The translations under genes were made by a program, and so were the position numbers. DNA of 43,553 nucleotides from the sequence record OR992644.1. The stretch is one strand, 5' to 3'. How positions within the stretch are numbered: position 1 is the first letter of the stretch; the number at the start of each line of letters is the position of its first letter. This document shows positions 1 through 43,553 of this stretch, piece by piece. This DNA is from Escherichia phage EP-B-K_E2. The notes under the pieces are model-generated. The model had not been told where the DNA came from, made no database searches, and saw only the letters and a list, made by a program, of their open reading frames with translations.

Positions 1-1
1 C

Positions 2-364
2 ACAAACGGTGAAAATCTTGGTTTCGGTTTCTGTGCCGAAGTTGGGGGGTTTATAAACTGCGAACGGTCGCACGCCCTCGGAAATCAGGTAGCTGGGTTT
101 TACGCGCTTAGCAATGGGAGTATGTGGGCGCACGCGTGTGTATCTAACAACAATATAGGCCACGGCTTCTATGCCCTAAACGGGGGCGTGGTTGAAGGTA
201 ATGGGCTTAGTACCGCAGACGCAGATAGGTCCAACGCCTACAGTAATGGCGGATGGGGTTTTTACGCAGTAAATGGTGGGATAATGCAGGCGTGGAACTC
301 ATATTCAACCAATAATAGTCAGGGCACTTACGGGACCTCAAACGGTGGGATAATGCTTCCATAG
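2..364 (+). CDS. tailspike C-terminal segment (continuation of the CDS starting at 42150, across the circular junction)
   Basis: Frame of 42150 ORF continues through the 55-bp terminal overlap into frame 2 at window start; stop at 362-364; repeated GFYAxNGG beta-helix-like motifs. Confidence 0.65.
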   Translation, partial: TNGENLGFGFCAEVGGFINCERSHALGNQVAGFYALSNGSMWAHACVSNNNIGHGFYALNGGVVEGNGLSTADADRSNAYSNGGWGFYAVNGGIMQAWNSYSTNNSQGTYGTSNGGIMLP

Positions 365-25496: not shown

Positions 25497-25500
25497 TAGA

Positions 25501-25529
25501 AGGCCCTGAAAGGGCCTTATTTTTTTTTA
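25501..25529 (+). terminator. rho-independent terminator
   Basis: aggccct-gaa-agggcct followed by 9 T. Confidence 0.7.
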
Positions 25530-25808
25530 TACAAATACGAATCCATCGCTGGTAGAGGTGTATCGGGTGGCGCCGTTTTTCGTTTCAGGCCAACAGATAT
25601 ATGAGCGACCATGATACTCTATCCACCAAAGTTCTACATCGGCACCTTCATTAGGTCGCGTCAACCACCCGTGGTGCAGCCAATACTTGCGCCCTATTTT
25701 AAATATGCCTTCTTCGCCTGAAGGCCTGCAACAGGCGACGCACTCTACTTGAATACCATCAACCTGCACACATGTCATATGTAAATTACTGTTTGAGTAT
25801 TTAGCCAT
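25527..25808 (-). CDS. reverse-oriented orphan gene, Cys-rich hypothetical protein
   Basis: 93-aa ORF with own promoter (25844-25872) and SD aaggaa; opposite to flanking structural genes. Confidence 0.55.
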   Translation of the reverse strand: MAKYSNSNLHMTCVQVDGIQVECVACCRPSGEEGIFKIGRKYWLHHGWLTRPNEGADVELWWIEYHGRSYICWPETKNGATRYTSTSDGFVFV

Positions 25809-25843
25809 TTCTAAATTCCTTATCTCTCGTTTCGATGTAATGA

Positions 25844-25872
25844 ATAGTACCCTATTATGCTGGTGTGTGCAA
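25844..25872 (-). promoter_or_regulatory. sigma70-like promoter TTGCAC-N17-TACTAT with dyad (minus strand)
   Basis: Near-identical to 12844-12872 element. Confidence 0.6.
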
Positions 25873-25967: not shown

Positions 25968-26143
25968 CCACCTGAGCTTGTGAAGTATGAACAAGCGACC
26001 GCGGCGCGGGCAGGTAACGGAGCGGGACGTAAGTCATGAGTGTAGTTACGCTGACGCGTTCGGAAGGGCCATACTCTATTGCTTGTGTAAAAAGTAACTG
26101 GTTTACTGAGATTACGCCGTTTCTATGTTTAAATGATAAGGAC

Positions 26144-26171
26144 TAGCGCCCCGCTTTAAGGCGGGGCTTTA
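26144..26171 (+). promoter_or_regulatory. GC-rich hairpin in leader upstream of spanin genes (possible attenuator)
   Basis: gccccgc-tttaag-gcggggc followed by tttactt. Confidence 0.4.
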
Positions 26172-26191
26172 CTTATCGAGAAAGGAGAAAC

Positions 26192-26578
26192 ATGAATCTT
26201 AAAGCAACTGTCGTAGCAGGAGCATGTTTCATCATCCTGGCTTACGCGCACGGCATCTACCAGTATCGCAGCGGCTGGAACGAAGGCCGGGTGAATCTCG
26301 TTTCGCAGCAACATCAGAAAGCACAGGCGGAGCTAGCGAAGAAAACACAACGGCAGCAGCAGGATGAATCAAAGGCCGCAGCCGCCGACAACGAAGGCAA
26401 GACGAAATCAGAGGTGATTACCCGTGAAGTCGTTAAGTACATTAAAACGCCTGGCCGCAGCGTGTGCACTTTCGACGATGCTCGCGTCCTGCTCAAGTCC
26501 CGCGCCGTCGCCAACGCCAATTCCATCCCCGGATACGACAATGATGCAGCCTCCGTGCAAACTGGCGGCGCCAAGTAG
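26192..26578 (+). CDS. i-spanin (Rz-like)
   Basis: N-terminal TM helix, Gln/Ala/Lys-rich periplasmic region, overlapping lipoprotein gene in +1 frame. Confidence 0.6.
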   Translation: MNLKATVVAGACFIILAYAHGIYQYRSGWNEGRVNLVSQQHQKAQAELAKKTQRQQQDESKAAAADNEGKTKSEVITREVVKYIKTPGRSVCTFDDARVLLKSRAVANANSIPGYDNDAASVQTGGAK

Positions 26579-26690
26579 CGACGCCGACGAGGATTTGGCT
26601 ATCGACGTTCAGAACGCCGAATGTGCACGGCAACTGAGACTGAAAGTGTTCATGCTGCAGGACTGGGTACGGAATGTGATGGCGGAATAA
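26424..26690 (+). CDS. o-spanin (Rz1-like outer-membrane lipoprotein), GTG start
   Basis: Signal peptide with lipobox LASC, Pro-rich mature region, overlapped architecture with i-spanin. Confidence 0.6.
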   Translation: MKSLSTLKRLAAACALSTMLASCSSPAPSPTPIPSPDTTMMQPPCKLAAPSSDADEDLAIDVQNAECARQLRLKVFMLQDWVRNVMAE

Positions 26691-26691
26691 G

Positions 26692-26715
26692 AAAAGCCCC
26701 TTATGGGGCTTTGTT
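26692..26715. terminator. bidirectional rho-independent terminator
   Basis: aagcccc-ttat-ggggctt flanked by A-run upstream and T-rich downstream. Confidence 0.55.
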
Positions 26716-26718
26716 GCG

Positions 26719-26883
26719 TTAAAAGTTTCCGTATACAAAATTACGTTTTCTGGTTCTCAATGGGACCCATGCAGGTATGTTATCATTGTGGACGAAATGT
26801 TCCTCATAGAAGAAAACCTTTTTGGTATTGCTGGACCAATGGTCCATTTTTAAAATTCTTCTTGCTTTTGCGTTTCTGGTCAT
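26719..26883 (-). CDS. reverse-oriented small ORF (54 aa, not in ORF track)
   Basis: Strong SD acaggaggg 7 nt upstream of ATG; convergent with spanins; shares bidirectional terminator. Confidence 0.4.
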   Translation of the reverse strand: MTRNAKARRILKMDHWSSNTKKVFFYEEHFVHNDNIPAWVPLRTRKRNFVYGNF

Positions 26884-26910
26884 TCTTATGCCCTCCTGTT
26901 TAAGTTACCT

Positions 26911-26932
26911 CCTATAATAGCACCCTATTATA
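26911..26932. promoter_or_regulatory. AATAG-N4-CTATT dyad element with TATAAT/TATTAT boxes (strand ambiguous)
   Basis: ctataatagcaccctattatat matches the dyad family at 25844 and 35034. Confidence 0.45.
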
Positions 26933-27033
26933 TTGGTGTCTATAGGGGTGGTTGCCTTCTGATGTGGAATAATTTATTCTTGACATGTAAATCCGGGTGG
27001 CCCGGGTTCCAACGTCCAGGGGACATACTGACT

Positions 27034-27735
27034 ATGAATCTTTTTTTACGCTATCCGTTCCAGGAAGAAGCTGGGGCAGAAGATAAAGCGGGTGGCGGTG
27101 ATGCACCGAAAATGTTCACCGCTGAAGAAGTTCAGGCGCTGATTGAGAAAGAAGTCGCCGGGCTTAAGGCCAATCAGGAAGCGTTGCTCGCGGAGAAGAA
27201 AGAAGCCGCTCGCAAAGCAAAAGAGGCCGAAGAAGAACGGCAGCGCGCCCACCAGGAGGCGTTAAAAGCCGCCGGTAAGATGGACGAGTTCGAAAAGACG
27301 ATTCGTAGCCAGTATGACCCGGTGTTAGCCGAGAAAGATGGTCGCATCTCCAAAATGGCAGAGCGCATCCTCGGCAGCGAACGTAAAGCGGTGTTAGGCT
27401 CTTTCGCGGGCGACTTTATCACCCCTGAAGCAGTAGACATTCTTGCACCGTTCGTTAAGACTGAGTTCGAAGGTGACGATGTGGTTACTAAGTTTGTCGG
27501 CGCAGACGGCAACGTAATCACGACTGACCCGGAACAGTTCCGCAAATACCTACGTGAACACAAAGCGTTTTCGCATTTGATTAAAGCAAATGCAGCTTCC
27601 GGCGGCGGGGCTTCCGGTGGCAAAGGCGGCGGGGCCGCACCAGCGTTTAAAGACATGAGTGAAGCGGAGCGTTTAGCTCTGTACAAATCGAACCCTGCCG
27701 AATTTGAACGGCAACTTAAAGCCCTGAGGAAATAA
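27034..27735 (+). CDS. scaffolding protein
   Basis: Ala/Glu/Lys-rich coiled coil, immediately upstream of major capsid gene. Confidence 0.6.
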   Translation: MNLFLRYPFQEEAGAEDKAGGGDAPKMFTAEEVQALIEKEVAGLKANQEALLAEKKEAARKAKEAEEERQRAHQEALKAAGKMDEFEKTIRSQYDPVLAEKDGRISKMAERILGSERKAVLGSFAGDFITPEAVDILAPFVKTEFEGDDVVTKFVGADGNVITTDPEQFRKYLREHKAFSHLIKANAASGGGASGGKGGGAAPAFKDMSEAERLALYKSNPAEFERQLKALRK

Positions 27736-27737
27736 TA

Positions 27738-28787
27738 ATGGCAATTACCACTATCGGCGATATCGTAACTGGCAACATCCCGGTCCTGGCGTCTTATATG
27801 ACCGAGGACCCGGTAGAAAAAACCGCGTTCTTCCAGTCCGGTATTCTGACCCCGACTCCGTACGCTGCCGAGATCGCTCGCGGCCCGTCCAACATCGCCA
27901 ACATTCCTTTCTGGAAAGCGATTGATACTTCTATTGAGCCTAACTACTCGAACGATGTGTATCAGGATATCGCTACCCCACGTAATGTGCAGACCGGCGA
28001 GATGATGGCCCGCGTTGCCTACCTGAACGAAGGCTTTGGCCAGGCAGACCTGACGGTTGAACTGACCAGTCAGAATCCGCTGCAATCCGTGGCTTCTCGC
28101 TTGGATAACTTCTGGCAGCGCCAGGCACAACGCCGTCTGATTGCTACCGCTCTCGGTCTGTACAATGACAACGTAGCCGCTACCGATGCTTACCACGAGC
28201 AGAACGACATGGTTATCGACGTGTCCGCTACTCTGGGCTTCGACGCAGGCGCATTCATCGACGCTACCCAGACTATGGGTGACGCCCTGATGGGCAACGG
28301 TGGTGAAGTGCTGGGCGCCATCGCGATGCACAGCTTCGTTTATGCGCAGGCACGTAAGCAGCAGCTTATTGACTTCATTAAAGACGCTGACAACGACACC
28401 CTGTTCGCCACCTACCAGGGTTATCGTGTGATTGTTGACGACAGCATGACCGTAGTCGGTACTGGCGGTGGCCGTAAGTTCATCTCTATCATCTTCGGTA
28501 ACGGCGCTATCGGTTACGGCGAGGGCAACCCGTCCAACCCGCTGGAATATGAACGCGAACCGTCTCGCGGTAACGGTGGTGGCGTCGAAACCCTGTGGAC
28601 TCGTAAGACCTGGCTGCTGCACCCACTGGGCTACAGCTTCACCAGCGCAGTAATCACCGGTAACGGCACCGAGACTGTCGCACGTTCTGCTTCCTGGCAG
28701 GACCTGGCGAACGCCTCCAACTGGAACCGTGTGGTTGATCGTAAGCACGTACCTATTGCCTTCCTGGTAACTGGTGTCGGTGCTTAA
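27738..28787 (+). CDS. major capsid protein
   Basis: 349 aa after scaffold gene, followed by strong terminator. Confidence 0.7.
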   Translation: MAITTIGDIVTGNIPVLASYMTEDPVEKTAFFQSGILTPTPYAAEIARGPSNIANIPFWKAIDTSIEPNYSNDVYQDIATPRNVQTGEMMARVAYLNEGFGQADLTVELTSQNPLQSVASRLDNFWQRQAQRRLIATALGLYNDNVAATDAYHEQNDMVIDVSATLGFDAGAFIDATQTMGDALMGNGGEVLGAIAMHSFVYAQARKQQLIDFIKDADNDTLFATYQGYRVIVDDSMTVVGTGGGRKFISIIFGNGAIGYGEGNPSNPLEYEREPSRGNGGGVETLWTRKTWLLHPLGYSFTSAVITGNGTETVARSASWQDLANASNWNRVVDRKHVPIAFLVTGVGA

Positions 28788-33642: not shown

Positions 33643-34773
33643 TCATCCCAGCATCTCCGGTGAAATAGTTAAACGTGCAACCTCGCCATATTCGGCGCTA
33701 TAAGTAATTACATTTGCACTACGGCCCGACATCCACCCTCCGCGGGAAGCATATGCATCTTTCGCCGCCAGGGTTCGGTGCTGCTCGACAATCATGTTAC
33801 GGCTTTCTACGATTTTCTGATGGTGCAGGTGGCCTACGTGGGCGTAGCTGTACTCGCTTTCGCCAAACGCTTTGCGGAACTTAGCTATCATAATTGGTTC
33901 GACCACCTCAAACCGACATTTATGGCCATGTGTAAAGAACAGAGTCGTTTTGCCGTGTTGTACCATCTTGTACACATCCGGCGACGTATCGACGAACACA
34001 CGAGGCTCATTGTCGTACAGCGTACTGAACATCTCAGCCAGCCAAATCATTCCGCTTTCGTCGTGGTTCCCTTGCACTATAAGCAAACGAACATTTCTAT
34101 GCTTAACAAGTGCCATATCTACAACACGGCGTACCATACGAATCATGTAGCGGACCAGTTTCTGATAGCGCGTGTCAGCGTCAAGGACATGACCACTAGT
34201 TGGCGTAACGGCATCCAGGCTATCGAAGTGCGCGAAGTCGCCTAGCAGGTTAATAACTCCAGTTCCTGCATCCGGTGCTTTCTGAAACGCCGCGTCGAAC
34301 CAGCGGGAGAACAGGTCTTCCGCAATCTTCATGTCCCAGTCGTCGCCGCTCTCGTCGGCCCAGGCCAGCATACCGAGATGAAAATCAGATACCGTGTAAA
34401 GATTGAGTAGCTTGTCGTCGCGTTTGGCGCGTGCTGCTTTAACAGGGGCGACTGGCGTAATCTCTGATTTCATTCCTTCGATTACGGCTTTCATCAACTC
34501 GACCTGACGTTCGGCATCGGTGTCTGTCTTAACCCATTGCAACTTAGTGTTGCCGAACTCGTCCACCAGTGACGACGTTCCTTTAATCTTGTAGCCGTCT
34601 GGTACTAGATGGCTAACGTCACGCCCGTGGCCTACGCCTTTTTTCGCCAGCTTCGCTTTACGGATACGAATAACGCGGTCTGAGATGCCGTATTTACGGG
34701 CGATATCTATATTCTTCATCCCGGCGTTCAATTCTTCCTGTAACTGTTCGTCGGTTATTTTCTTCTGGGCCAT
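33643..34773 (-). CDS. HTH domain fused to calcineurin-like metallophosphoesterase
   Basis: N-terminal HTH IDIARKYGISDRVIRIRKAKL; motifs SDFHLG, GDFAHFD, VQGNHDE, THGH, VGHLHH; start set to ATG with SD gaggaag. Confidence 0.7.
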   Translation of the reverse strand: MAQKKITDEQLQEELNAGMKNIDIARKYGISDRVIRIRKAKLAKKGVGHGRDVSHLVPDGYKIKGTSSLVDEFGNTKLQWVKTDTDAERQVELMKAVIEGMKSEITPVAPVKAARAKRDDKLLNLYTVSDFHLGMLAWADESGDDWDMKIAEDLFSRWFDAAFQKAPDAGTGVINLLGDFAHFDSLDAVTPTSGHVLDADTRYQKLVRYMIRMVRRVVDMALVKHRNVRLLIVQGNHDESGMIWLAEMFSTLYDNEPRVFVDTSPDVYKMVQHGKTTLFFTHGHKCRFEVVEPIMIAKFRKAFGESEYSYAHVGHLHHQKIVESRNMIVEQHRTLAAKDAYASRGGWMSGRSANVITYSAEYGEVARLTISPEMLG

Positions 34774-34811
34774 GCTTACTTCCTCGTGTTTAGGATTTGT
34801 CTTATAGTAGC

Positions 34812-35003
34812 CTACTTCTCTTTCACGTTCGAGTTGCAAGCCCAGATTAAAATAAATACCCACGGCAGCAGAACCCAGCCAAGAAACAGATTAGCCATGA
34901 ATATCGCCAACTTCGCTTTATGGTTACGGAAGTACGCAACCAGGAAAGGCGCGAAATAAGCGAGCAGTGCAAACAGAATTAAGGAAACTGGTAAACTGGA
35001 CAT
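34812..35003 (-). CDS. small membrane protein (alternative start 35018)
   Basis: Two hydrophobic helices; SD aagggg 6 nt before second ATG; directly downstream of promoter 35034-35062. Confidence 0.5.
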   Translation of the reverse strand: MSSLPVSLILFALLAYFAPFLVAYFRNHKAKLAIFMANLFLGWVLLPWVFILIWACNSNVKEK

Positions 35004-35033
35004 TTTAAACCCCTTCATTGTTGGTGTAAGTGA

Positions 35034-35062
35034 ATAGTACCCTATTATATTGGGGTACGCAA
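35034..35062 (-). promoter_or_regulatory. sigma70-like promoter TTGCGT-N17-TACTAT with dyad (minus strand)
   Basis: Near-identical to 12844-12872 and 25844-25872 elements. Confidence 0.6.
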
Positions 35063-42149: not shown

Positions 42150-43553
42150 ATGTCAAGCGGATGCGGTGACGTTTTAAGCCTGGCGGATTTACAGATTGCG
42201 AAGAAGCACCAGCTTTTCGAGGCTGAGGTTATCACAGGCAAATCAGGCGGCGTATCAACTGGTACTGATATTGATCACGCAACCAACGCTGTTACTGGGC
42301 AAGTGCAGAAAACAATGCCAGCCATTTTGAGAGATGTAGGATTTGAACCGGCGGCGTTCGATTTTTACACTGGAGGTACTCTTAGCGTGACTGACCGTAA
42401 TAAGGCGGTGTTATGGCCTTTAGGTTCTGGCGGAGATGGTGCGTGGTATAATTGGGAGGGCGCTTTGCCGAAAGTGGTCCCCGCTGCGTCTACTCCTGCT
42501 ACCACCGGGGGCATCGCCGCTGGTGCGTGGAAGCTAACTATGGACCCTACATTACGCAGTGACCTGACTAATGTGGAGTCAGACCTGGCCGAACTTAATT
42601 CCGATTTTGAAGCGTATAAGACATCACTGGCATCTGCAAACAGTGGCCTCCTGGTTGATGATAGCAACATAAAAGTCCAGGGCGACTTTAACAACACCGT
42701 AATCCGCACTCAGCACTCAAAAAATAATGACACACCAACCGTAAAAGATTTTGGTGCAATAGGCGACGGCGTAACCGACGATACTGCGGCACTCCATGCC
42801 GCGTTTGCCTCCGGTGTGTACTATTTCCCTCACGGCTTATATAAGACTACTACCGCATCGACGATATCACAGTTAGCCAAATCCGACGGCCCGGGTGTGA
42901 TAACGTTTAACGGGGTTAACTTCCCTGCGTCGCGCACGGTTGATAATGCTGTGTATCTTGTGTCGGTTCCTGAAATGTTCCCTACTATCCAGGCGGCCCT
43001 TGACTTCTTCAGTTTTAAACGTGCAGCTAATAACGCGTGGTTTCGCATTCAGGTCGATAATGGGGTGTACCAGGTTAAAAACATTCGTTCCAGGGTAAAA
43101 GACTGGCACGCCTTGCAAATTATAGGTAATGAGTCAAACCCTCTGGACTGTCAATTACAAGTAGACACTACTGACAACGGGTGTGGTTTTATTTTTGAAG
43201 ATGGGTTTGGGGCCGCGGTTATAAACGGCTTCCATATTTTCGGTGTAGGAGGATGGTCATCTAAGGGTGTATGGGCTAATCAAAGTTACGGAGCCGCTAT
43301 TCGTGTTATAGGGTCAGGTTCTAAGGTATCAACAGGAACCGCCATTCGTACGGAAAGAATATATTACGGATTCCAGGCGTTGTACGGCGGCACTATCAAC
43401 TGTCAGGGGACTACCGCCGTTCAGGCAGGGGACTGCGGATACCATGCATATGCTGCGACGATTAATGCTTACGGATGCACCGCACAGGACTGTGCGCACA
43501 CAAACGGTGAAAATCTTGGTTTCGGTTTCTGTGCCGAAGTTGGGGGGTTTATA
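42150..43553 (+). CDS. tailspike with pectate-lyase-like beta-helix (N-terminal part; continues at 2-364)
   Basis: SD aaagagga; KDFGAIGDGVTDDTAALHAAFASG pectate-lyase-type motif; no stop before window end; total 571 codons if circular. Confidence 0.7.
   Translation, partial: MSSGCGDVLSLADLQIAKKHQLFEAEVITGKSGGVSTGTDIDHATNAVTGQVQKTMPAILRDVGFEPAAFDFYTGGTLSVTDRNKAVLWPLGSGGDGAWYNWEGALPKVVPAASTPATTGGIAAGAWKLTMDPTLRSDLTNVESDLAELNSDFEAYKTSLASANSGLLVDDSNIKVQGDFNNTVIRTQHSKNNDTPTVKDFGAIGDGVTDDTAALHAAFASGVYYFPHGLYKTTTASTISQLAKSDGPGVITFNGVNFPASRTVDNAVYLVSVPEMFPTIQAALDFFSFKRAANNAWFRIQVDNGVYQVKNIRSRVKDWHALQIIGNESNPLDCQLQVDTTDNGCGFIFEDGFGAAVINGFHIFGVGGWSSKGVWANQSYGAAIRVIGSGSKVSTGTAIRTERIYYGFQALYGGTINCQGTTAVQAGDCGYHAYAATINAYGCTAQDCAHTNGENLGFGFCAEVGGFI
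43499..43553. repeat. 55-bp terminal redundancy identical to 1-55
   Basis: Exact identity; lies inside tailspike coding frame, consistent with circular-contig overlap. Confidence 0.9.

What the first reader, a model, noticed from the sequence alone, without database searches (positions are those of the whole stretch)
26692..26935. Unannotated reverse-strand small gene convergent with the spanins
On the minus strand a 54-codon ORF (26719-26883, MTRNAKARRILKMDHWSSNTKKVFFYEEHFVHNDNIPAWVPLRTRKRNFVYGNF) is preceded by a near-consensus SD (acaggaggg, 7-nt spacing) and by a dyad element of the same family (26911-26932). It ends at a hairpin with A-run upstream and T-run downstream (26692-26715) that can terminate both strands. 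It is below the length cutoff of the ORF track, and the plus-strand ORF 26703-26903 in the track looks spurious by comparison (no SD, odd composition).
Basis: seen in the sequence. Interest (0 to 1): 0.5.

Follow-up and report, generated by a model that had tools for sequence, protein, structure and literature searches.

The report
Phage-borne Sra-like ribosome protein gene cassette
The small reverse-strand ORF is a real, selectively conserved gene for a 54-residue basic protein whose first half is homologous to Sra, a bacterial protein that binds the small ribosomal subunit in stationary phase, and it sits in a self-contained, swappable gene cassette of a Kagunavirus-like phage.

Summary
ORF 26719-26883 (-), its SD (7-nt spacing), dyad 26913-26932 and hairpin 26693-26712 are all present.

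The ORF is a real gene. The frame is intact in every homologue down to 37% identity. dN is 0.2-0.3 while synonymous sites are saturated. The rival 66-aa plus-strand frame gives dN/dS of 1.7-4.3.

The gene lies in a ~260-bp low-GC insertion that the closest Kagunaviruses lack. The insertion is a moron cassette: an extended -10 sigma70-type promoter built around the phage's own dyad, then SD, ORF and intrinsic terminator. The same cassette (93-95% identical) occupies a different intergenic slot in other Kagunavirus-like contigs. In Shemara and PhiSTP2 the window's slot keeps the same promoter, 5' UTR and terminator but holds other ORFs.

Residues 1-29 are homologous to Sra (RpsV/S22): NCBIfam NF007473 E 2e-7, and hhalign 96.7%, E 4e-10. 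A phage-only profile also recovers a chromosomal Sra. The window protein scores below both curated cutoffs, and its aromatic, basic C-terminal half is unlike Sra's.

Relatives occur only in enterobacterial phages and prophages. I found no paper describing a phage-borne Sra.

Inferred, not shown: it is made early and docks on host 30S subunits.

The parts
26719..26883 (-). CDS (stop included) for a 54-aa, pI 10.7, net +7 phage-type Sra-like protein. Residues 1-29 form the Sra-homologous module. Residues 30-54 form a phage-specific aromatic and basic module (W39, P41, T44, Y51, G52 invariant across the closest seven homologues; W39 and T44 across all thirteen).
26891..26899 (-). Shine-Dalgarno ACAGGAGGG, 7 nt before the ATG. 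It lies within a 5' UTR (GGTAACTTAAACAGGAG) shared with cassettes carrying other ORFs.
26914..26942 (-). Sigma70-type promoter: -35 TAGACA (26942-26937), 17-nt spacer, TG-extended -10 TATTAT (26919-26914). Predicted transcription start near 26907.
   Evidence: 10 of 12 matches, TG present; same layout at the two other D5 copies
26913..26932 (.). Perfect dyad TATAATAG-CACC-CTATTATA spanning the spacer and -10. It belongs to the genome-wide AATAG-N4-CTATT promoter/operator family (8 copies). A DNA-level operator role is inferred.
26693..26712 (-). Intrinsic terminator hairpin (8-bp stem, 4-nt loop) followed by UUUUCUUAUU on the minus strand. It begins 3 nt after the o-spanin stop. It is weak as a plus-strand terminator.
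26691..26950 (.). Inserted segment of about 260 bp that is absent at this site from the closest Kagunaviruses. GC is 0.38-0.39 against 0.53-0.58 in the flanks, and the AT skew is inverted. The last ~9 codons of the o-spanin (from about 26663) are also of the Shemara/PhiSTP2 type.
26703..26903 (+). 66-aa plus-strand ORF: spurious, an antisense shadow of the real gene.
   Evidence: dN/dS 1.7-4.3 in this frame; no family hit

Best explanation
The minus-strand ORF 26719-26883 is a functional accessory gene carried in a self-contained moron cassette, consisting of a promoter with the phage's dyad, an SD, the ORF and a terminator. The cassette is plugged, antisense to the late operon, into a conserved accessory-gene socket between the o-spanin and scaffold genes.

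Its product is a 54-aa, strongly basic peptide. Residues 1-29 descend from the same ancestor as the conserved N-terminal half of Sra (RpsV, 'S22'), the enterobacterial protein that binds the 30S subunit tightly and accumulates in stationary phase. The C-terminal 25 residues form a distinct, conserved module found only in the phage and prophage forms.

Most likely mechanism (inferred):
1. Host RNA polymerase transcribes a roughly 215-nt monocistronic mRNA early in infection, from an early-type promoter.
2. The peptide docks on host 30S subunits at the Sra site through its N-terminal module.
3. The extra C-terminal module changes affinity or outcome. It could displace or mimic Sra, so that ribosomes of slow-growing or stationary hosts stay protected and usable for phage translation.

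Shown here: gene reality, cassette mobility, and homology to Sra. Inferred: early expression, 30S binding, and the physiological effect.
For: Gene reality:
- The frame is intact in all homologues.
- In the sense frame dN is 0.20-0.31 with dS saturated against DNA that is 34% diverged. The other frames give 0.8-4.3, apart from the codon-complement frame, which is broken by stops.

Cassette:
- It is an insertion relative to the closest relatives.
- It has low GC and an inverted AT skew.
- It has a promoter and a terminator.
- The unit from promoter to terminator is 93-95% identical to one in another slot of L012-L018, with unrelated flanks.
- Shemara and PhiSTP2 have the same socket ends with different ORFs.

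Sra homology:
- NF007473 matches the window protein at E 2e-7, 31.4 bits, residues 1-30.
- All 14 other phage-type relatives scanned match the same model, and five of them pass the 35-bit cutoff.
- hhalign of phage-type against bacterial Sra profiles gives 96.7%, E 4e-10, columns 1-29.
- A phage-only profile searched against 1.8 billion proteins recovers chromosomal Sra P0014.
- Net charge (+7) and pI match those of E. coli Sra.

Early-type expression:
- The promoter architecture is shared with the minus-strand early region.
- Homologues lie in early or middle operons: after primase/helicase in Cornellvirus-like contigs, and at the distal end of the early-left operon next to xis/int in lambdoid prophages.

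Sra biology: it binds 30S tightly and rises in stationary phase and in persister cells (PMC10502375, PMC9959377, 10.1101/2020.09.04.282723).
Against: - The window protein is below the curated cutoffs of both Sra models (31.4 against 35 bits; 14.8 against 25 bits).
- Pairwise BLASTP against E. coli Sra finds nothing.
- Only 29 residues align, and about half of Sra's invariant N-terminal residues are replaced.
- The C-terminal half is unrelated to Sra's.
- Neither Sra's binding site nor its molecular function is known, and no Sra chain is in the PDB. The proposed docking therefore cannot be modelled.
- AF2 gives a low-confidence model (pLDDT 50).
- There are no expression data. The promoter and terminator are consensus matches only; one such promoter is expected by chance in the scanned 1.2 kb.
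Confidence: 0.6

Rival explanations
1. It is a real small basic protein with an Sra-derived N-terminus, but it does not act on ribosomes. It could be a nucleic-acid-binding regulator, an anti-defence factor, or an inhibitor of some other host protein.
For: Only 29 residues are shared with Sra, and the C-terminal module is novel. The neighbouring sockets with the same promoter type carry unrelated host-interaction cargo, such as a superinfection-immunity protein. Sra's own function is unknown (PMC10502375).
Against: The conserved part of the phage family is exactly the most conserved part of Sra. Charge and size are retained. No other family gives any significant hit.
Confidence: 0.22
2. It is a decaying passenger: a captured fragment of host sra with no current function, kept only because the cassette is small.
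For: The gene is sporadic. It is absent from all 50,697 deposited phage genomes except Sa179lw, and the closest relatives lack the insert.
Against: There is strong purifying selection over saturated synonymous divergence. The frame, SD and start codon are intact everywhere. The C-terminal motif is conserved across lytic and temperate phages. The same gene has been acquired independently at three or more genomic positions.
Confidence: 0.05
3. The functional product is an RNA, for example an antisense or small RNA made from the promoter-terminator unit, or the unit is a transcriptional insulator for the late operon. On this view the ORF is incidental.
For: The transcription unit is short, compact and antisense to the late operon, with a strong hairpin.
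Against: Substitutions are concentrated at synonymous sites of one frame, which an RNA gene would not produce. Rfam gives no relevant hit. In Cornellvirus-like phages and prophages the ORF sits co-directionally inside operons, with start/stop overlap to its neighbours.
Confidence: 0.03
4. The plus-strand 66-aa ORF 26703-26903 is the real gene.
For: It is longer and passed the ORF-length cutoff.
Against: dN/dS is 1.7-4.3 in its frame. It has no SD, an odd Cys/Phe/Trp-rich composition, and no homologues or family hits.
Confidence: 0.01

Closest known systems
Sra (RpsV, 'ribosomal protein S22'; Pfam PF08136, NCBIfam NF007473) of Enterobacteriaceae
   Same: The N-terminal 29 residues are homologous (M-x-x-N-x-x-A-R-x-[IL]-L-x-[LM]-x-H-x-x-S-N-x-x-K). 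The protein is similarly small, has net charge +7 and a pI of about 10.7-11.
   Different: It is 54 aa rather than 45. The C-terminal half is replaced by an aromatic-rich module (9 F/W/Y against 0). It has H-W and S-N-T where Sra has H/Y-K and S-N-Q. It is below the curated family cutoffs. It is encoded in a phage cassette behind a sigma70-type promoter, not at the chromosomal bdm-sra locus with stationary-phase control.
[quoted passage not shown]
   Same: It has the same two-module architecture, with the same invariant H-W, S-N-T and W-x-x-x-R-T motifs. It is phage-borne and sits in an early operon.
   Different: It is only 38-43% identical to the window protein. It sits co-directionally at the end of the early-left operon next to xis/int, not in an antisense moron of a virulent siphophage.
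Virus-encoded ribosomal proteins and hibernation factor HPF (bS21, bL12, HPF; Mizuno et al. 2019, PMC6375957)
   Same: The concept is the same: a phage carries a homologue of a loosely bound or exchangeable host ribosome-associated protein, under purifying selection.
   Different: Sra/S22 is not among the 14 ribosomal proteins plus HPF reported there. Those viral copies are near full-length homologues, whereas this one keeps only half of the host protein.
Phage morons, as defined for lambdoid phages such as HK97 and lambda (own knowledge: Juhala, Hendrix and colleagues)
   Same: It is an autonomous promoter-gene-terminator unit, inserted between two genes of an operon, absent from close relatives, and of deviant base composition.
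   Different: Here the promoter, 5' UTR and terminator form a conserved 'socket' shared across Guernseyvirinae genera, within which ORFs are exchanged. The promoter is of the phage's own dyad-bearing family rather than foreign.

Membership tests
Sra (NCBIfam NF007473 equivalog / Pfam PF08136) | Score at or above the curated family cutoff | tested here: not met
   Window protein: 31.4 bits against a cutoff of 35 (E 2e-7), and 14.8 bits against 25. The relatives P0002, P0004, P0011, P0012 and P0015 pass NF007473.
Sra (NCBIfam NF007473 equivalog / Pfam PF08136) | Homology of the conserved N-terminal region to bacterial Sra | tested here: met
   hhalign gives 96.7% probability, E 4e-10, columns 1-29. 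A phage-only profile retrieves chromosomal Sra P0014 at E 1.7e-4 in 1.8 billion proteins.
Sra (NCBIfam NF007473 equivalog / Pfam PF08136) | Residues invariant in bacterial Sra (M1 S3 R5 Q6 A7 L11 G12 S18 N19 Q20 K22, then G38 R39) | tested here: inconclusive
   The window protein keeps M1, A7, L11, S18, N19 and K22 (6 of 11 N-terminal positions) and replaces S3, R5, Q6, G12 and Q20. The GRKR tail is not alignable, although an RTRKR string exists.
Sra (NCBIfam NF007473 equivalog / Pfam PF08136) | Length of about 45 aa with a hydrophilic, non-aromatic C-terminal tail | tested here: not met
   The protein is 54 aa, with 7 aromatic residues in the C-terminal half. The C-terminal halves do not align.
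Sra (NCBIfam NF007473 equivalog / Pfam PF08136) | Chromosomal gene induced in stationary phase (RpoS/ppGpp) | tested here: not met
   It is encoded in a phage cassette with a sigma70-type extended -10 promoter. The E. coli sra locus is maeA-sra-bdm. The actual regulation cannot be tested here.
Sra (NCBIfam NF007473 equivalog / Pfam PF08136) | Tight binding to the 30S ribosomal subunit | not testable with these tools
   No Sra chain is in the PDB. The AF2 model has pLDDT 50. This needs biochemistry.
Phage moron | Present between two genes that are adjacent in close relatives | tested here: met
   The top 30 megablast hits all align in two pieces that skip the segment (84% coverage); two of them, phiWAO78-1 and GZMU_E2010 (96% identical flanks), were aligned and lack about 260 bp there.
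Phage moron | Own promoter and terminator flanking the gene | tested here: met
   A 10/12 TG-extended promoter and an 8-bp-stem terminator are found on the minus strand. These are consensus matches only; transcription was not measured.
Phage moron | Base composition different from the surrounding genome | tested here: met
   GC is 0.38-0.39 against 0.53-0.58.
Phage moron | Expressed independently of the surrounding operon | not testable with these tools
   This requires transcript mapping.
Ribosomal protein eL39 (PF00832 / NF002316) | Significant match to the family profile | tested here: not met
   Only a motif-level resemblance exists (IPAWVPLRT against IPQWIRLRT). E is 0.014-0.26 in Pfam, 0.011-0.074 in NCBIfam, and 4.7 against PDB eL39.

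The most novel reading that the evidence does not exclude
Enterobacterial phages and prophages maintain a two-module, long form of Sra as a ribosome-targeting takeover factor, and the host's Sra and this phage family are in evolutionary exchange. Sra was recently proposed to be a young, 'likely de novo' Enterobacteriaceae gene that tends to lose its C-terminus (10.1101/2025.11.04.686544, which never mentions phages). It could instead be a domesticated, truncated phage gene. Alternatively, phages may repeatedly capture and re-arm it in order to infect dormant cells with hibernating ribosomes.
Probability: 0.15. Interest if true: 0.8.

Novelty: new variant of a known kind. Interest (0 to 1): 0.55.

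Why it matters
Sra is among the most abundant proteins of non-growing E. coli, yet its binding site and function are still unknown. A phage-maintained relative implies that the Sra site on the 30S subunit is worth targeting during infection. This relative is under purifying selection, has been acquired repeatedly, and keeps exactly Sra's conserved N-terminal half while adding a new C-terminal module.

It offers a natural variant for mapping that site and for testing what Sra does. It also bears on where this 'young' hibernation factor came from.

Separately, the conserved unit of promoter, 5' UTR and terminator, with exchangeable ORFs, shows how virulent Guernseyvirinae shuffle accessory genes. 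That is relevant when such phages are chosen for therapy.

Tried and rejected
- Pairwise BLASTP of the window peptide against E. coli Sra gave no alignment. The sequences are too short and too compositionally biased, so profile methods were needed.
- PHROGs gave no family.
- PDB sequence searches with the peptide, with the Sa179lw relative and with E. coli Sra gave nothing useful. The myosin light-chain hits at E 0.47 were dismissed as chance.
- The AF2 model was too poor (pLDDT 50) to justify a fold search, so none was run.
- The eL39 resemblance of the C-terminal motif was followed up and is not significant.
- Rfam found no RNA family in the cassette.
- The cassette DNA has no match in 5,426 complete E. 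coli genomes. The prophage-type gene is also not present there as near-identical DNA; only its flanks match.
The distribution in reference bacterial genomes was therefore not surveyed.
- P0010, a 247-aa repetitive protein from the profile search, was dismissed as a low-complexity artefact.
- The low dN/dS in antisense frame f1 is the known codon-complement artefact, and that frame is interrupted by stops.

Full report
**1. Observation**

The window is a Kagunavirus-like siphophage of the Guernseyvirinae, with 95-96% DNA identity to many Escherichia phages over the flanking genes.

- The 54-codon minus-strand ORF is at 26719-26883, with the quoted translation.
- The SD ACAGGAGGG lies 7 nt upstream of the ATG.
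- There is a perfect 8+8 bp dyad at 26913-26932.
- There is an 8-bp-stem hairpin at 26693-26712, beginning 3 nt after the o-spanin stop.
- The hairpin is a convincing intrinsic terminator for the minus strand only (UUUUCUUAUU tail). On the plus strand the tail is UUUGUUGCG and the scan did not call it.

**2. It is a real gene and the plus-strand ORF is not**

Word-indexed and exhaustive protein searches found a small family.

- Six clusters at 37-93% identity came from the word-indexed searches.
- About ten representatives came from a search of 1.8 billion proteins.
- 34 IMG/VR viral contigs also carry a relative.

The minus-strand frame is intact in every one.

Against homologous DNA that differs at 34% of positions (L004, L010), the sense frame has dN of 0.20-0.31 with synonymous sites saturated. 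The frame of the 66-aa plus-strand ORF gives dN/dS of 1.7-4.3. The only other frame with a low ratio is the codon-complement frame, which is interrupted by stops.

Rfam finds nothing relevant in the region. The exact peptide is not in a collection of 15 billion predicted proteins, and its 90% cluster has no names, so it is indeed unannotated.

**3. The gene sits in a mobile cassette**

*The insertion*

- All 30 listed best matches to window 26000-27800 align in two pieces that skip about 264 bases.
- Alignment with two of the closest Kagunaviruses shows that 26691-26950 is an insertion just after the o-spanin stop.
- The insert has GC of 0.38-0.39 against 0.53-0.58 in the flanks, and an inverted AT skew.

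*The promoter*

- On the minus strand the insert carries TAGACA-N17-TG-n-TATTAT, a 10/12 match.
- The dyad spans the spacer and the -10 hexamer.
- The same layout occurs at 25841-25872 and 35031-35062.
- The dyad core AATAG-N4-CTATT occurs 8 times in the window against 0.03 expected. Five copies lie between 3 and 14 kb, four of them (3166, 7075, 9388, 12860) within the D2/D3 promoter-like repeats of the minus-strand early region.
- The cassette therefore uses the phage's own promoter and operator type.

*Mobility*

- The unit from promoter through SD and ORF to terminator is 93-95% identical to a unit in other Kagunavirus-like contigs (L012-L018). There it lies in a different slot, between the 153-aa gene and the i-spanin, with unrelated flanks.
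- In the window that other slot keeps the same upstream framework but holds a 93-aa ORF.
- Conversely, the window's slot in Shemara (Cornellvirus) and PhiSTP2 has the same promoter, the same 5' UTR and SD (GGTAACTTAAACAGGAG) and the same terminator, but encloses unrelated 105-aa and 169-aa ORFs.
- These are conserved expression sockets in which the cargo is exchanged.

**4. What the protein is**

*Matches to Sra models*

- NCBIfam's Sra equivalog model NF007473 matches residues 1-30 at E 2e-7 (31.4 bits; cutoff 35).
- It also matches all 14 other phage-type relatives scanned (20.9-41 bits), and five of them pass the cutoff.
- Pfam PF08136 matches the same residues, below threshold.

*Independent tests*

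- A profile of 13 phage-type sequences aligns to a profile of 15 chromosomal Sra proteins with 96.7% probability, E 4e-10, over columns 1-29 of both.
- A profile built only from phage members retrieves P0014, a 41-aa gene on a 579-kb chromosomal contig that passes both Sra models.

*The C-terminal half*

- The C-terminal halves do not align.
- The phage form has a conserved module (W39 and T44 invariant; WVPLRTRKRNFxYG in close relatives) with 7 aromatic residues, where E. coli Sra has none.
- Net charge (+7) and pI (10.7 against 11.0) are the same.
- AF2 predicts only two short N-terminal helices, at low confidence, as expected for a peptide that would fold on a partner.

*Membership*

The window protein fails the curated cutoffs. 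It has a different C-terminus, a different length and a different genomic setting. I therefore call it Sra-like, homologous in the N-terminal module, and not an Sra orthologue.

**5. Distribution**

All long-form members I could place are in phages or prophages of enterobacteria.

- Cornellvirus/Jerseyvirus-like contigs carry it co-directionally after primase/helicase, with its own TTGACA-N17-TAATAT promoter and a TAATG overlap with the next gene.
- Buchananvirus Sa179lw carries it inside a run of small genes whose starts and stops overlap.
- Lambdoid prophages carry it between DUF4222 and excisionase/integrase, at the end of the early-left operon.
- Kagunaviruses carry it in two different antisense sockets.

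It is absent from all other deposited phage genomes. Early or middle operon placement is the common denominator.

**6. Mechanism**

The literature describes Sra as a 45-aa basic protein that binds the 30S subunit tightly. It rises in stationary phase and in persister cells, and may act together with RMF. Its site and function are unknown (PMC10502375; PMC9959377; 10.1101/2020.09.04.282723).

I infer that the phage peptide is made early from its sigma70-type promoter. It would dock on 30S through the Sra-like module, and use the added C-terminal module to alter affinity or outcome. The direction of the effect cannot be decided from sequence: it could protect ribosomes, block hibernation, or bias translation. 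Late plus-strand transcription through the cassette would be antisense to the gene and could switch it off (inference).

**7. Comparison with what is known, and novelty**

- Phage-encoded homologues of exchangeable ribosome-associated proteins are known, for example bS21, bL12 and HPF (PMC6375957). That census does not list Sra/S22.
- The recent evolutionary study that calls Sra a likely de novo Enterobacteriaceae gene never mentions phages.
[quoted passage not shown] The sequence link is therefore latent in databases, but I found no description of it.
- I rate this a new variant of a known kind. The gene call and the homology are solid, and the functional claim is untested.

Noticed in passing
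window 25500-25872: A second antisense cassette lies in the slot between the 153-aa gene and the i-spanin. It has a D5-type dyad promoter (25841-25872), a 93-aa Cys-rich ORF (25527-25808, minus strand) with no Pfam hit, and a bidirectional terminator hairpin (25500-25525). In L012-L018 this slot holds the Sra-like gene instead.
   Followed up: partly
window 33643-35062: The third D5-type promoter (35031-35062) drives a minus-strand 68-aa superinfection-immunity protein (34812-35018; PF14373, 48 bits, above cutoff). It is followed by a 406-aa protein with sub-threshold calcineurin-like phosphoesterase matches (33643-34863; PF12850 25.4 bits vs cutoff 27).
   Followed up: partly
window 3166, 7075, 9388, 12860, 14071, 25843, 26916, 35033: The dyad core AATAG-N4-CTATT occurs 8 times against 0.03 expected. 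Seven copies fall in repeat families that read as -35/-10 promoter-like sites on the minus strand; 14071 was not examined. It looks like a common operator for an unidentified phage regulator.
   Followed up: partly
window 26740-26781 (residues 35-48 of the peptide): The C-terminal motif IPAWVPLRT resembles the rRNA-contacting IPQWIRLRT of ribosomal protein eL39, and one JGI record even names a relative 'ribosomal protein L39E'. The resemblance is statistically insignificant (E 0.014-4.7). It may be convergence on an RNA-binding motif.
   Followed up: yes
window 1-55 and 43499-43553: There is an exact 55-bp direct repeat at the two ends of the window. This is consistent with an assembly overlap of a circularly permuted or complete genome.
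   Followed up: no
window 26832-26846 (+): A plus-strand terminator-like hairpin (TGGACCAATGGTCCA followed by TTTTTAAAAT) lies inside the antisense of the Sra-like ORF. It could attenuate late-operon read-through across the cassette.
   Followed up: no
L013 3656-5515 and 5620-5949; L017 1970-2491; L012 1559-2098: Related Kagunavirus-like contigs show further variable features around the same module. There is an intein-containing Mu_F-like head morphogenesis gene (PF14890). There are also extra antisense ORFs (109, 173 and 179 aa, no Pfam hit) between portal and Mu_F and between o-spanin and scaffold. This suggests several accessory-gene sockets.
   Followed up: partly
L018 about 225-275: The terminator of the Sra-like cassette is tandemly duplicated in this contig (AACGCGGCAAGGCCCCTT repeated).
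   Followed up: no
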